From contig NC_083278.1 in the NCBI RefSeq assembly GCF_963506605.1, forward strand, positions 33,108,001 through 33,172,000: a DNA stretch of 64,000 bases, in the 5' to 3' direction. Positions 27,001 through 30,000 of this stretch are shown in pieces. How positions within the stretch are numbered: the stretch's first letter is position 1; each line of letters starts with the position of its first letter. The DNA comes from Zootoca vivipara. Lineage: Eukaryota. The position numbers are program-made.

Positions 27001-30000
27001 ATGTTTAAGTTAACTTTTGTTAAGAGACCAGCAGCTTTCTTATTAGGCATTTCAGGTGAAGACCTGCCAAAAGATAAGACAACTATTTATGTACTAGTGT
27101 CATTCAGCCCGTTCAGTAAACGGGCGCTAGCCGGGCGGGAACGGAGGGGAAGCCCTGGGACCGCGCAGGCGTCACCTCTGTCGAGCACCTGAGGCCCACC
27201 GGGCCCTCCTCCGCTTCCTCCCGCTGTCCTGAGTGGTGACGGCCTCCTCCACCTCCCTTCTCCTCCTCACCTGAGGAGAAGGAAGAGGCCTCTGCTGCCG
27301 CCTCCCGTAGCGCGCCTCAGGTAAGCACGCCGCCCCTCGCTCTCCCGCCTCTCCGCCCCTGCGTCACTCCGCTGCAGCTCCCACTCTCGCCCCACCCGCC
27401 AGCGAGCACCTGAGGCCCACCGGCCCCTCCTCCGCCTCCTCCCGCTGTCCTGAGTGGCGACGGCCTCCTCCACCTCCCTGCTGCGGCGGAGTGACGCGGG
27501 ATGGGAGAGCGAGGGGCGGCGCGCTTACCTGAGGCGCACTGCAGGAGGTGGCAGCAGAGGCCTCTTCCTTCTCCTCAGGAGAAGGGAGGTGGAGGAGGCC
27601 GTCGCCACTCGGGACAGCGGGAGGAGGAGGAGGAGGGGCCGGTCTCTGTGCTCCAAGTCTCTGTGTCCAATCCCTGTGTCCATGGGACACATGCGCAGTA
27701 GCGCAGACACAGGGACTGGACGCAGAGACACAGGGACTTTATTATATAGGATGCTACAACTGCAGCTAGGATTCTGCGAGCCCAAAGATGGAAAAGTGAT
27801 GAAATACCTACAAAAAGAACAATGACAAGAAAAACTGATGGAGTATGCTGAAATGGCGAAGTTAACTGGAAGACTCAAAGATAAGGACAATAGAGACTTT
27901 TTAAAAAAACTGGGAACCTTTTATATCTACAGAAACAATGTAAAGATATGAACTCACTTGCAGGGTTTGACTAACCACTTACAATTAGCAAAATAAATAG
28001 TGAAAATAGAAAAATGAGGATAAAATAAGCAGGCGAAATGAATGTGTAAGAAACCAGGAAGGGAAGTTGGGGGAAGTCATGGGGAGGGAGTAACTGAGAA
28101 TTCATTTTGTGTTTATATTGTTAATTGTGATTTTGTTTAAAAAGATGTAAAATTTAATAAAAATCATTTACACACAAAAAGAAAGAAAGAAGGAAGCTGA
28201 GACAGGGCAATGGGAGCTCACAGTGTCACGCGGATTCGAACTGCCGACCTTTCAATTGGCAAGCCCAAGAGGCTCAATGGTTTAGACTACAGCACCACAC
28301 ACATCCCTAAGTAAGAGTAAGGTACTATAGAAGCCGCATTGGCTCCATTACTATTTGTATGCTTAGACTAGGGATGATGAACCTGTGGCCCTCCGGATAT
28401 TGTTGGACTTTCATCAGATTCAGCCATCATGGCCAGTGGTCAGGAATGATGCAAATTGTGGTCTAACAACATCTGGAGGGCCACAGGTTTCCGATCTCCA
28501 GCTTAGATCGTTTCTGTAGTATCATTTTATTTTATTTGTCCCCTGCATATTAACAGGTGAATTATTCACCCCAAGTATAGTTTTGTAAAGTATGTTTTAT
28601 TTCCCCAATAAAAATGTGTATTTGAAAATCGTAACAGATAAATCTCTTATAATAATGGGAAACAAAGTCAGCTGGCAGATCAAAGCAGTTCTTAAAAATA
28701 ATAATTATTGGATTGTTTATTTTAGCAGCAGGGCAAATTTATCATTTGGAGTGCTCCCCCCAGTATACATACTCGAGATAAATGGTCCAAAATGAAATTA
28801 AATTGAGCTTCCAAACATTTTTTAAAATTACCTCTCTGCTTCAATGGGAAAAAAGTTTGCATTTACTGAACTCCTTATGAATAGTGTTCTGCTGATATAC
28901 ATTTTTTTTAAAATGATAATCTCGCCCTTCCCCTAAATTGAGACCGGTTTACAAGTCTCTTACCTGCATTGGTCTCTCTCACACACACACATACTCTCAT
29001 GTTTCTTATTTCAGTGGCTGTACAGTGGAACCTTGGTTTATGAACACCTCGGTTTACGAATTTTCGGTTTACGAACGCCACGGACCCACCTGGAACGGAT
29101 TAATTCACTTTCCATTACTTTCAATGGGAAAGTTCACTTCAGTTTATGAACGCTTCAGTTTAAGTACTCCGCGGACCGTCTGGAACAGATTAATCCACTT
29201 TCCATTACTTTCAATGGGAAAGTTCACTTCAGTTTATGAACACTTCAGTTTATGAACAGACTTCCGGAACCAATTGTGTTCATAAACCGAGGTACCACTG
29301 TATCTGAGTTACAGGTTACAGGGAGAACATGGCTCCCTTGTTGCAACAGCTCAACTGGCTGTTTCCAGGCTCAATTCAAAAAGCTGCTTGTCACCTATAA
29401 AGCCCTATATGGTCCAGGCTACCTGACCATATGAACCTGGTCAGACTATCTCTGGTGAAGGTGCTTCTCTCTGTCCTGCTACCCTCATAGCTATGTTTGG
29501 TGGGAATTCAGGAGAGGGGCTTCTGGGTGGCAGCTCCCAGTCTTGGGAAAACCCTTCTTAAGAGAATCTAGATTGGCTCTCTCCTTTCTGCCAGCAGGGG
29601 ATGATTGTTTTATTCTGGCAAGCTTTTGGGGAACTGGCTGCTTTTTTTTAAAAAAAAGGGCTCTTAATAGTGTATGGTACTGCCCCAACCACCGCATCTG
29701 CATTTTTATATATTCCTTTATAGATAAAAAGGAAATAACCTAACATTTTACAGTGGTGCCTCGACTTATGAATTTAATCCGTTCTGAAGGCACCTTCGTA
29801 GGTCGAAAAATTCATAAGTCGAAAAATGCCATTGGAAACGTAATTTCCCATAGGAATGCATTGCAAACGGAAAAATCCGTAAGTCGAAGCAACCCTATCT
29901 AAAAAGTCGAAAAATCCCTATCTAAAACCACCACAGTTTTCTTTCGGATGTCGAGACATTCGTAAGCGCGCGGCCATTACCCCCATTCATAAGTCGAAAA

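What the first reader, a model, noticed from the sequence alone, without database searches (positions are those of the whole stretch)
27094..27751. Non-autonomous Helitron with a self-rearranged CpG-rich core (direct plus inverted duplications)
Seen: canonical 5'-TC, 3'-CTAG and subterminal hairpin. A ~76-bp block at ~27183-27258 recurs at ~27404-27479, and ~27481-27642 is an imperfect inverted copy of ~27198-27376. The core keeps many CpGs and carries CAG|GTAAG donor-like sites on both strands (~27318 plus, ~27524-27531 minus). Established: Helitrons capture host DNA. Inference: a young, possibly uncatalogued family that spreads a CpG-island-like fold-back cassette with splice donors.
Basis: partly seen in the sequence, partly recalled or inferred. 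Interest (0 to 1): 0.65.

Follow-up and report, generated by a model that had tools for sequence, protein, structure and literature searches.

The report
Lizard Helitron with fold-back cargo
This is a 658-base non-autonomous rolling-circle transposon (Helitron) whose ends resemble a family already described in lacertid lizards, and it is an ordinary mobile-element copy apart from a CpG-rich cargo present in three partial copies that can fold into a long hairpin.

Summary
Window 27094-27751 has Helitron hallmarks, all on the minus strand: 5'-TC, 3'-CTAG, a 19-nt subterminal palindrome, A|T flanks, no terminal inverted repeats. The 80-nt direct repeat (95%) and the ~164-nt inverted copy (92.7%) are real. 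The core is CpG-island-like: GC 0.72, CpG o/e 0.67 against 0.29 for the window.

The host looks like a lacertid lizard. Li & Pollet 2025 (PMC12001565) describe the Heli1Xen1 family in Lacertidae, with TC/CTAG ends, a TATATAAA left-end motif and a CCCGTTA...TAACGGG hairpin. This element has TATATAAT and CCCGTT...AACGGG, the latter unique in the window. The family is therefore probably catalogued.

Seven of 12 differences between the inverted copies are CpG transitions. The rearrangement is thus millions of years old and decaying, not pristine.

I could not test copy number, whether the fold-back is family-wide, or whether the cargo is host-derived or the family's own leader. No host genome, Dfam or supplements were available.

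New context: the element sits inside a 1,259-bp retroposed insert with a 15-bp target duplication, which itself splits a SINE. Interest is low to moderate.

The parts
27094..27751 (-). Whole non-autonomous Helitron, 658 bp, GC 0.676, 50 CpGs, CpG o/e 0.67
   Evidence: No RepHel domain in the window.
27737..27751 (-). Left (5') terminus. It starts with TC followed by the TA-rich motif TATATAAT. Flanking base 27752 is t, which is A on the element strand.
   Evidence: printed minus strand. The published Heli1Xen1 left-end motif is 'TATATAAA'.
27657..27729 (.). Palindrome inside the left terminal region, with arms 27657-27680 and 27706-27729
   Evidence: I5: 24 nt, 92% complementary; 27644-27751 folds at -28.7 kcal/mol, z -6.45, 0 of 200 shuffles as good.
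27480..27643 (-). Cargo copy C. It matches positions 17-197 of unit 1, lies in the Helitron-sense orientation next to the left end, and carries the donor-like CAGGTAAG (reverse complement of 27524-27531).
   Evidence: (152 of 164 identical to unit 1, with an 8-nt and three small gaps).
27403..27482 (+). Cargo copy B (unit 2), covering the first 80 nt of unit 1 as a direct repeat. It joins copy C with 0-2 nt of shared sequence at about 27480-27482.
   Evidence: 76 of 80 identical to unit 1; 59 of 61 against the inverted copy.
27182..27402 (+). Cargo copy A (unit 1, 221-nt period). It is a CT-rich exon-like stretch with no ATG, the donor-like CAG|GTAAG at 27318-27325, then 82 nt ending in an acceptor-like ...CCGCCAG at 27402.
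   Evidence: The donor and acceptor reading is from the sequence only.
27131..27181 (.). Unique GC-rich segment between unit 1 and the right terminal region
   Evidence: no repeat partner.
27107..27125 (-). Right-end (3') 19-nt palindrome: 7-bp stem and 5-nt loop, with core CCCGTT...AACGGG at 27108-27124
   Evidence: -8.1 kcal/mol, z -3.07. (1 match in the window, 0 of 100 shuffles with any). The published pattern is 'CCCGTTA...TAACGGG'.
27094..27097 (-). 3' terminal CTAG. Flanking base 27093 is a, which is T on the element strand.
26936..28194 (+). Enclosing 1,259-bp retroposed insert, of which 601 bp are not Helitron. It is AT-rich, has AATAAA at 28156, and ends in an A-rich tail.
26921..26935 (+). 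Left copy of the 15-bp target-site duplication of the enclosing insert. The right copy is at 28195-28209. Two further bases to the left are also identical.
   Evidence: exactly 2 occurrences in the window.
28195..28298 (-). tRNA-like head of a SINE-like repeat that is split by the insert. Its body is at 26661-26935. Unsplit paralogues lie at about 46269-46605 (+) and 14261-14578 (-).
   Evidence: 71-76% identity. The paralogues are continuous across the insertion point.

Best explanation
Window 27094-27751 is a non-autonomous Helitron, a rolling-circle DNA transposon, lying on the minus strand in what appears to be a lacertid-lizard genome. Its ends resemble those published for the horizontally transferred Heli1Xen1 family.

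Layout in the element's own orientation:
- a 108-nt left terminal region, consisting of TC, a TA-rich motif and a palindrome;
- a CpG-rich cargo;
- a 37-nt right terminal region, consisting of a 19-nt hairpin, 9 nt and CTAG.

The cargo is one promoter-proximal-looking segment: a CT-rich, ATG-less, exon-like stretch, a strong donor-like site, and the start of an intron-like stretch. It is present as a full antisense copy (221-nt period), a second antisense copy of its first 80 nt, and a sense copy of positions 17-197 joined to that 80-nt copy.

Inferred origin of this layout: one or two template-switch or fold-back events during DNA synthesis, followed by several million years of decay dominated by CpG transitions.

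Inferred mobility: by analogy with Helraiser, a RepHel transposase supplied in trans nicks at the 5'-TC and unwinds 5' to 3'. It pauses at the right-end hairpin and cuts after CTAG. The circularised strand then integrates between A and T.

The sequence features are shown. Mobility, copy number and any promoter, splicing or hairpin-RNA activity are inferred. Whether the cargo comes from a host gene's 5' end or from the family's own leader is left open.
For: Canonical features on one strand:
- TC, CTAG, A|T flanks and no terminal inverted repeats.
- A 19-nt palindrome 9 nt before CTAG.
- Both ends coincide with the jump from GC 0.37-0.41 flanks to a GC 0.68 element.

Host:
- A BovB-type reverse-transcriptase ORF at 38790-39644 has its 7 best listed hits in Podarcis muralis, at 90-93% identity.
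- The 8th best hit is Zootoca vivipara, at 95% identity over 84% of the query.
- Snakes, Varanus and ruminants follow at 73-82% (120 rows listed of 8000 scored).

Family (Li & Pollet 2025, Results and Discussion read):
- Heli1Xen1 is reported in Lacertidae, with hundreds to more than 20,000 non-autonomous copies across the species studied.
- It has TC/CTAG ends, 'TATATAAA' in the left end and the hairpin 'CCCGTTA...TAACGGG' in the right end.
- Here TATATAAT matches 7 of 8 positions, and CCCGTTt...gAACGGG matches 6 of 7 on each arm.
- CCCGTT-N(1-9)-AACGGG occurs once in the window and in 0 of 100 shuffles.

Non-autonomous: 0 of 123 ORFs of 80 aa or more hit a Helitron Rep or helicase family.

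Rearrangement:
- Repeats as.
- The single strand folds at -265.3 kcal/mol against -150.1 +/- 4.1 for 20 shuffles.

Decay: 7 of 12 mismatches between unit 1 and the inverted copy are CpG transitions, in both directions.

Mechanism by analogy: Helraiser (sections read).
Against: - No second copy or related terminus exists in the 64 kb, so mobility and family size are not shown.
- There is no empty site for the Helitron itself.
- A generic hairpin + CTRR + T motif is at chance frequency: 13 sites against 10.5 +/- 3.2.
- The match to the Heli1Xen1 motifs is near, not exact. It rests on two short motifs quoted in the text.
- The paper's own membership rule, at least 80% identity over at least 80% coverage, could not be applied.
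- BovB moves horizontally, so the host inference from one LINE ORF is good but not proof.
- The element lies inside a retroposed insert. It may therefore have reached this site as part of an RNA copy rather than by rolling-circle transposition.
Confidence: 0.8

Rival explanations
1. Cargo origin A. The CpG-rich segment is captured host DNA: the promoter-proximal region, a non-coding first exon and the start of intron 1 of a lizard gene.
For: - The segment is CpG-island-like.
- It has an ATG-less, CT-rich, exon-like stretch ending in CAG|GTAAG.
- Helitron captures are biased to gene 5' ends. In Heli1Xen1, 17 of 19 CDS fragments come from 5' ends. In bats, promoters, 5'-UTRs and first exons or introns are the commonest captures.
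Against: - No parent locus could be sought.
- There is no coding sequence to search. The one long ORF tried (124 aa) had 0 significant hits among 55 candidates.
- Only 64 of 2,310 X. laevis insertions carry CDS fragments.
- In Anolis, every non-autonomous Helitron family is a deletion derivative of an autonomous one, and only one family is composite.
Confidence: 0.4
2. Cargo origin B. The segment is the family's own 5' leader, meaning the promoter, 5'-UTR and leader intron of the autonomous element, retained in a deletion derivative and then partly duplicated and inverted.
For: - The sense copy (27480-27643) sits directly after the left terminal region, where an autonomous element's leader would lie.
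- The autonomous X. laevis copy is annotated with a 5'-UTR, and transcription-factor peaks lie at its 5' end.
- Non-autonomous Helitrons in Anolis are deletion derivatives.
Against: - No autonomous copy was available for comparison.
- The most complete copy of the segment is the antisense one next to the right end.
Confidence: 0.4
3. The Helitron did not transpose into this site. A polyadenylated transcript that already contained it was reverse-transcribed and inserted as the 1,259-bp unit 26936-28194.
For: - The Helitron lies wholly inside an insert with a 15-bp target duplication, AATAAA at 28156 and an A-rich tail.
- That insert splits a SINE-like repeat whose two paralogues are continuous across the insertion point.
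- Helitron sequence is found in 417 of 29,493 assembled bat transcripts.
Against: - An equally simple story is a later Helitron insertion into the AT-rich retrocopy (GC 0.29-0.33) at an A|T site.
- Reverse transcription would have had to pass a fold-back of roughly 180 bp.
- Nothing in the window separates the two stories.
Confidence: 0.35
4. It is not a mobile element. It is a native palindromic CpG-island promoter whose edges resemble Helitron ends by chance.
For: - The core meets CpG-island criteria.
- Generic 3'-end-like motifs are common.
- There is only a single copy in the window.
Against: - The published lacertid Helitron hairpin core occurs only here, 9 nt before CTAG|T and exactly at the composition boundary.
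- TC and a TA-rich motif sit exactly at the other boundary, after an A.
- The block sits inside a retroposed insert.
- The CpG-transition pattern between the copies points to methylation-type decay rather than a protected island.
Confidence: 0.04
5. The direct and inverted duplication is an assembly or library artefact, such as a fold-back chimera.
For: Inverted junctions are a known artefact class (my own knowledge, no call).
Against: - The copies differ by 3.3-7.3%, with indels and a CpG-biased substitution pattern. An artefact would give near-identical arms.
- The window holds no N.
Confidence: 0.02

Closest known systems
Non-autonomous Heli1Xen1 Helitrons of Lacertidae, Cordylidae, frogs, a caecilian and bichirs (Li & Pollet 2025, PMC12001565)
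   Same: - TC and CTAG ends, with insertion at A|T.
- A TA-rich left-end motif and the CCCGTT/AACGGG right-end hairpin core.
- A lacertid-like host.
- Short non-autonomous size.
- A tendency to carry gene 5'-end fragments.
   Different: - The motifs match 7 of 8 and 6 of 7 positions, not exactly.
- The parts of the paper that I read describe no fold-back or triplicated CpG-rich cargo.
- Its capture survey covered coding fragments in X. laevis only.
- Membership by the paper's 80%/80% rule is untested.
HelibatN3 and other promoter or first-exon-carrying Helibat elements of vespertilionid bats (Thomas 2014, PMC4224331; Grabundzija 2016, PMC4778049)
   Same: - A non-autonomous Helitron with a CpG-rich, promoter-like cargo followed by a splice donor in the element's sense orientation.
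- A 19-nt palindrome close to the 3' end.
   Different: - The host and the family differ.
- The Helraiser hairpin has an ATT loop and lies 11 nt from the end. Here the loop is 5 nt and the hairpin lies 13 nt from the end.
- The parent gene is unknown.
- The cargo is partly triplicated with one copy inverted.
- There is no evidence of transcripts.
Anolis carolinensis non-autonomous Helitrons, for example the 550-bp Helitron-2N4_AC (Novick 2011, PMC3014272)
   Same: Short non-autonomous squamate Helitrons with hundreds to thousands of copies and low divergence.
   Different: - Those are reported as plain deletion derivatives.
- Only one of those families is composite.
- No sequence comparison was possible.
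Mu killer of maize, an inverted duplication of a transposon segment that yields hairpin RNA and silences the family (my own knowledge, no call)
   Same: An inverted duplication of transposon-borne sequence that could form a long hairpin if transcribed.
   Different: - It involves a different transposon class and kingdom.
- Neither transcription nor small RNAs are shown here.
- This is a resemblance only.

Membership tests
Helitron (canonical, Helitron1 type) | 5'-TC terminus | tested here: met
   The minus strand starts with TC, the reverse complement of 27750-27751. The definition is quoted.
Helitron (canonical, Helitron1 type) | 3'-CTRR terminus | tested here: met
   CTAG at 27094-27097.
Helitron (canonical, Helitron1 type) | 16-20-nt palindrome just upstream of the 3' end | tested here: met
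   A 19-nt palindrome at 27107-27125, 9 nt before CTAG, z -3.07. A generic scan shows such motifs are frequent by chance.
Helitron (canonical, Helitron1 type) | Insertion between A and T without target-site duplication, and no terminal inverted repeats | tested here: met
   The flanks are a (27093) and t (27752), with no flank duplication by reading. None of the 11 inverted pairs joins the two termini.
Helitron (canonical, Helitron1 type) | Mobility: multiple copies sharing both ends, or an empty site | not testable with these tools
   There are 0 further copies in the window. No host genome or related genome was available.
Heli1Xen1 (Li & Pollet 2025) | At least 80% identity and at least 80% coverage to the Heli1Xen1 query (the paper's rule) | not testable with these tools
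Heli1Xen1 (Li & Pollet 2025) | Right-end hairpin 'CCCGTTA...TAACGGG' followed by CTAG | tested here: inconclusive
   Here the hairpin is CCCGTTt-act-gAACGGG, matching 6 of 7 positions on each arm. The core motif is unique in the window and appears in 0 of 100 shuffles.
Heli1Xen1 (Li & Pollet 2025) | Left end starting with TC and carrying the TA-rich motif 'TATATAAA' | tested here: inconclusive
   Here the motif is TATATAAT after TCC, matching 7 of 8 positions. The paper says the left end varies between species.
Heli1Xen1 (Li & Pollet 2025) | Host among the reported lineages, which include Lacertidae | tested here: met
   The best hits of the window's BovB-type ORF are Podarcis muralis and Zootoca vivipara. 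This is an inference from one LINE ORF.
Promoter or first-exon capture Helitron (HelibatN3-like) | Cargo homologous to a host gene's promoter, 5'-UTR or first exon | not testable with these tools
   There is no host genome. The cargo has no ATG-initiated exon to search, and the ORF search found nothing.
Promoter or first-exon capture Helitron (HelibatN3-like) | Splice donor downstream of the cargo exon that is used in chimeric transcripts | not testable with these tools
   A donor-like CAGGTAAG is present in both orientations. No RNA data were available.
CpG island | At least 200 bp, GC of at least 0.5, CpG o/e of at least 0.6 (thresholds from my own knowledge) | tested here: met
   Core of 513 bp, GC 0.717, o/e 0.67.
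CpG island | Unmethylated in the germ line | tested here: inconclusive
   7 of 12 differences between copies are CpG transitions. This points to methylation-type decay, but no methylation data were available.

The most novel reading that the evidence does not exclude
The fold-back is not just debris. When read through, for example from the enclosing transcript-derived insert or from the cargo's own promoter-like part, the ~180-bp near-perfect hairpin would give double-stranded RNA. That RNA would be directed against the cargo sequence. The copy would then act as a Mu-killer-like source of small RNAs that silences sibling Helitrons or the donor gene in a vertebrate. Alternatively, the fold-back sub-family is itself amplified and spreads paired splice donors.
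Probability: 0.06. Interest if true: 0.6.

Novelty: new member of a known kind. Interest (0 to 1): 0.25.

Why it matters
As it stands this is a routine annotation result, with three small points of value.

- It shows that the ends of a recently described, horizontally transferred vertebrate Helitron family can be recognised in a raw lizard window from two short published motifs.
- It gives a clean example of internal template-switch rearrangement of Helitron cargo, with a datable, CpG-biased decay signature.
- It shows three nested layers: a SINE, then a retrocopy, then the Helitron.

If the same fold-back cassette turned out to be amplified or transcribed, it would bear on how Helitrons spread promoters and splice donors. 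It would also bear on whether inverted cargo triggers RNA-based silencing in vertebrates.

Tried and rejected
- **Bat Helibat reading.** This was my first lead. I dropped it as the host because the window's intact BovB-type ORF is closest to lacertid lizards. The Helraiser hairpin also has a different loop and spacing.
- **Self-BLAST of the element against the window.** Only internal repeats and matches of 29 nt or less, all low-complexity, were found.
- **Terminus searches with up to 3 mismatches.** These found the element itself only, plus two 3-mismatch hits at chance level (expected 0.68; 4 of 100 shuffles with 3 or more). I read the one at 40609-40624 and rejected it, because it has no TC and is plain AT-rich DNA.
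- **Rfam at gathering thresholds.** 0 matches in the window.
- **ARAGORN.** 0 tRNA genes.
- **Pfam on 123 stop-to-stop ORFs of 80 aa or more.**
  - One real hit, RVT_1 at 38790-39644.
  - One sub-threshold hit, DUF3915 at 19.9 bits against a cut-off of 26.9, on a microsatellite ORF.
  - No Rep or helicase hit. An earlier 9-ORF scan gave the same result.
- **Protein search with the 124-aa ORF 27367-27738 (-).** 55 word-sharing candidates, none at E <= 0.001, searching proteins of 68-217 residues only.
- **Generic Helitron 3'-end scan.** Not informative: 13 sites against 10.5 +/- 3.2.
- **Full-text search for the 14-nt left-end string.** 0 papers.
- **Search for 'Heli1Xen1'.** 1 paper.
- **Search on Helitron + inverted duplication + hairpin + small RNA.** It returned 329 papers holding at least 3 of the 4 terms. 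Of the 15 listed, 10 concern plants and none vertebrate Helitrons. I saw the listing only.
- It failed on a length limit. I re-sent the request within limits.

**Not used, and why**
- Genome contigs holds prokaryotes only.
- search_dna_similar holds phages, plasmids and E. coli.
- Neither can contain a lizard transposon.

**Other working notes**
- I do not take the contig for human.
- The window holds no N.
- The two halves of the split retrocopy and of the split SINE were compared separately and never joined for a search.
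Full report
**1. Observation**

I read 26800-28100. The block 27094-27751 stands out from AT-rich flanks:
- The element has GC 0.676, 50 CpGs and CpG o/e 0.67.
- The 1-kb flanks have GC 0.41 and 0.37, with o/e 0.21 and 0.36.
- The whole window has GC 0.416 and o/e 0.29.

The Helitron hallmarks are all there, but on the minus strand:
- The element strand begins with TC followed by a TA-rich motif (printed). This is the reverse complement of 27737-27751.
- It ends in CTAG at 27094-27097.
- The flanking bases are a (27093) and t (27752), so it lies between A and T.
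- I see no flank duplication.
- None of the 11 inverted pairs found joins the two termini.

The plus-strand reading fails. TC at 27100 follows g, and CTAG at 27766-27769 is followed by g and has no hairpin before it.

A 19-nt palindrome (27107-27125, 7-bp stem and 5-nt loop) lies 9 nt before CTAG. It folds at -8.1 kcal/mol, z -3.07, and 3 of 200 shuffles fold as well.

**2. Internal repeats**

- The repeat finder, self-BLAST and gapped alignment agree.
- Unit 1 (27182-27261) recurs at 27403-27482, with 76 of 80 positions identical.
- 27480-27643 is an inverted copy of 27198-27378, with 152 of 164 aligned positions identical, one 8-nt gap and three small gaps.
- The direct repeat has a 221-nt period. 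Unit 1 plus the 24 nt at 27379-27402 is followed directly by unit 2.
- Unit 2 stops after 80 nt and is joined, with 0-2 nt of shared sequence, to the inverted copy.
- Over the 61 nt that all three copies share, unit 1 has 3 private differences, the inverted copy has 2, and unit 2 has none.
- Three sequences cannot be rooted and the counts are small, so I draw no order of events from this.
- The left terminal region holds its own palindrome, 27657-27680 against 27706-27729. The stretch 27644-27751 folds at -28.7 kcal/mol, z -6.45.
- As single-stranded DNA the whole element folds at -265.3 kcal/mol, against -150.1 +/- 4.1 for 20 shuffles. The inverted copy pairs with unit 1.

**3. Chance controls**

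- A generic scan counted hairpins of at least 6 bp lying 4-16 nt before CTRR followed by T. It found 13 sites in the window against 10.5 +/- 3.2 in shuffles.
- The 3' motif by itself is therefore not evidence.
- CAGGTAAG occurs 6 times against 2.2 +/- 1.45 expected.
- The two copies of CAGGTAAG inside the element are one site duplicated by the inversion.
- The case rests on two things: the exact coincidence of both termini with the composition boundaries, and the specific family motif described in section 4.

**4. Host and family**

The window has vertebrate-type CpG depletion.

Only one of 123 ORFs of 80 aa or more has a credible Pfam hit, RVT_1 at 38790-39644. None hits a Helitron Rep or helicase family.

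That ORF's best matches are as follows (120 rows listed of 8000 scored):
- Podarcis muralis: 7 rows at 90-93% identity.
- Zootoca vivipara: 95% identity over 84% of the query.
- Crotalus, Varanus, Bos, Ovis and Capra: 73-82%.

This is a BovB-type LINE and the host is lacertid-like. I do not take the contig for human.

A search for Helitron + Lacertidae led to Li & Pollet 2025 (PMC12001565). I read Results parts 1-2, Discussion part 1 and matched passages. They describe the following:
- Heli1Xen1 is a horizontally transferred family found in Lacerta, Zootoca, Darevskia, a cordylid, frogs, a caecilian and bichirs.
- It has hundreds to more than 20,000 non-autonomous copies.
- It has TC/CTAG ends, a TA-rich 'TATATAAA' in the left end and the hairpin 'CCCGTTA...TAACGGG' in the right end.

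The element here has TATATAAT and CCCGTTt...gAACGGG. The motif CCCGTT-N(1-9)-AACGGG occurs once in the window and in none of 100 shuffles.

I therefore file the element as Heli1Xen1-like. The paper's membership rule (at least 80% identity and 80% coverage) could not be applied, because the consensus sequences and terminal logos are in closed supplements.

**5. Age and CpG**

- Of the 12 mismatches between unit 1 and the inverted copy, 7 are CpG-to-TpG/CpA transitions, in both directions.
- Raw divergence is 12 of 164, or 7.3%. Without the CpG transitions it is 5 of 164, or 3.0%.
- With the lacertid rate quoted in the paper's Table 1 (2.56e-9), T = K/2r gives about 14 and 6 million years. This is my arithmetic and is rough. 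It assumes no gene conversion.
- This dates the rearrangement, not the insertion.
- The core keeps many CpGs but is losing them in the way methylated DNA does. 'Young' is only loosely right.

**6. What the cargo is**

- In its own sense orientation the segment is CT-rich and has no ATG (by reading).
- It ends in a strong donor-like CAG|GTAAG.
- It continues for 82 nt to an acceptor-like ...CCGCCAG at 27402.
- It therefore looks like a non-coding first exon plus the start of an intron, preceded by a GC-rich stretch at 27131-27181.

Two origins fit, and I cannot separate them here:
- **Host capture.** This is favoured by the known 5'-end bias of captures. In Heli1Xen1, 17 of 19 CDS fragments come from 5' ends. 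In bats, promoters, 5'-UTRs and first exons are the commonest captures.
- **The family's own leader.** This is favoured by the position of the sense copy right after the left end. Autonomous copies also have a 5'-UTR and a presumed promoter. Anolis non-autonomous Helitrons are deletion derivatives.

A protein search with the longest ORF across the element found nothing.

**7. Surroundings**

BLAST of the flanks and direct reading show that the Helitron is nested.
- 26936-28194 (1,259 bp) is an insert in the plus orientation.
- It has AATAAA at 28156 and an A-rich tail.
- It has a perfect 15-bp target duplication at 26921-26935 and 28195-28209, with exactly 2 occurrences in the window.
- This insert splits a SINE-like repeat with a tRNA-like head, at 26661-26935 and 28195-28298 on the minus strand.
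- Two paralogues of that repeat, at about 46269-46605 and about 14261-14578, are continuous across the insertion point at 71-76% identity.

So either the Helitron inserted into a retrocopy, or a transcript already carrying it was retroposed.

**8. Mechanism**

Shown:
- the terminal anatomy;
- the absence of a transposase gene;
- the repeat architecture;
- the decay pattern;
- the nesting.

Inferred by analogy with Helraiser:
- A RepHel enzyme supplied in trans nicks at TC.
- It unwinds 5' to 3'.
- It pauses at the right-end hairpin and cuts after CTAG.
- The circular strand integrates at AT.

Inferred for the rearrangement: template switching or fold-back priming during DNA synthesis. This is consistent with the near-blunt junction at 27480-27482.

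Any promoter, donor or hairpin-RNA activity is speculation. HelibatN3 shows that a promoter plus a donor in a Helitron can create chimeric transcripts.

**9. Verdict**

- The Helitron reading is supported.
- The 'uncatalogued, young, spreading' part is not supported or is untestable here.
- This is a new exemplar of a known kind, of low to moderate interest.
- The unusual feature is the ~180-bp fold-back of CpG-rich cargo.

Noticed in passing
window 26936-28194, with duplications at 26921-26935 and 28195-28209: A 1,259-bp plus-strand retroposed insert encloses the Helitron. It has AATAAA at 28156, an A-rich tail and a perfect 15-bp target-site duplication. The 601 bp that are not Helitron are AT-rich (GC 0.29-0.33) and of unknown source.
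   Followed up: partly
window 26661-26935 + 28195-28298 (-); paralogues at about 46269-46605 (+) and about 14261-14578 (-): A SINE-like repeat family has a tRNA-like head with a box-B-like GTTCGAATCC. The three copies are 71-76% identical. The copy at 14261-14578 coincides with a window flagged as CpG-island-like (14261-14600).
   Followed up: partly
window 38790-39647 (+) and 60195-60672: There are two BovB-type LINE 3' parts with long open frames of 285 and 122 aa. The first is 90-95% identical to Podarcis and Zootoca proteins, which points to recent LINE activity. The BovB label rests on the snake and ruminant hits and on my own knowledge.
   Followed up: partly
window 22532-22990 (-): A 153-aa open frame resembles, from memory, the C-terminal part of a CR1/L2-type LINE ORF2. 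It has no Pfam hit.
   Followed up: no
window 29225-29258, 30257-30636, 34392-34529 (opposite orientation); similar short arrays at 5814-5950: A 16-nt unit (GTTCATAAACTGAAGC and variants) recurs in 90- and 149-nt higher-order tandem arrays. It is probably another repeat family. A (TC)25(CA)15 microsatellite lies beside it at 30656-30734.
   Followed up: no
window 37281-37720 and 37941-38140: This is the other strong CpG-island-like block in the window (GC 0.69, o/e 0.69), about 10 kb from the Helitron. It may be a real promoter. It shows no similarity to the Helitron cargo.
   Followed up: no
window 27321-27402: On the plus strand, the donor-like site of unit 1 and the acceptor-like ...CCGCCAG just before unit 2 delimit an 82-nt pyrimidine-rich, intron-like stretch. 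The tandem junction therefore coincides with an acceptor-like site. This is from reading only.
   Followed up: no
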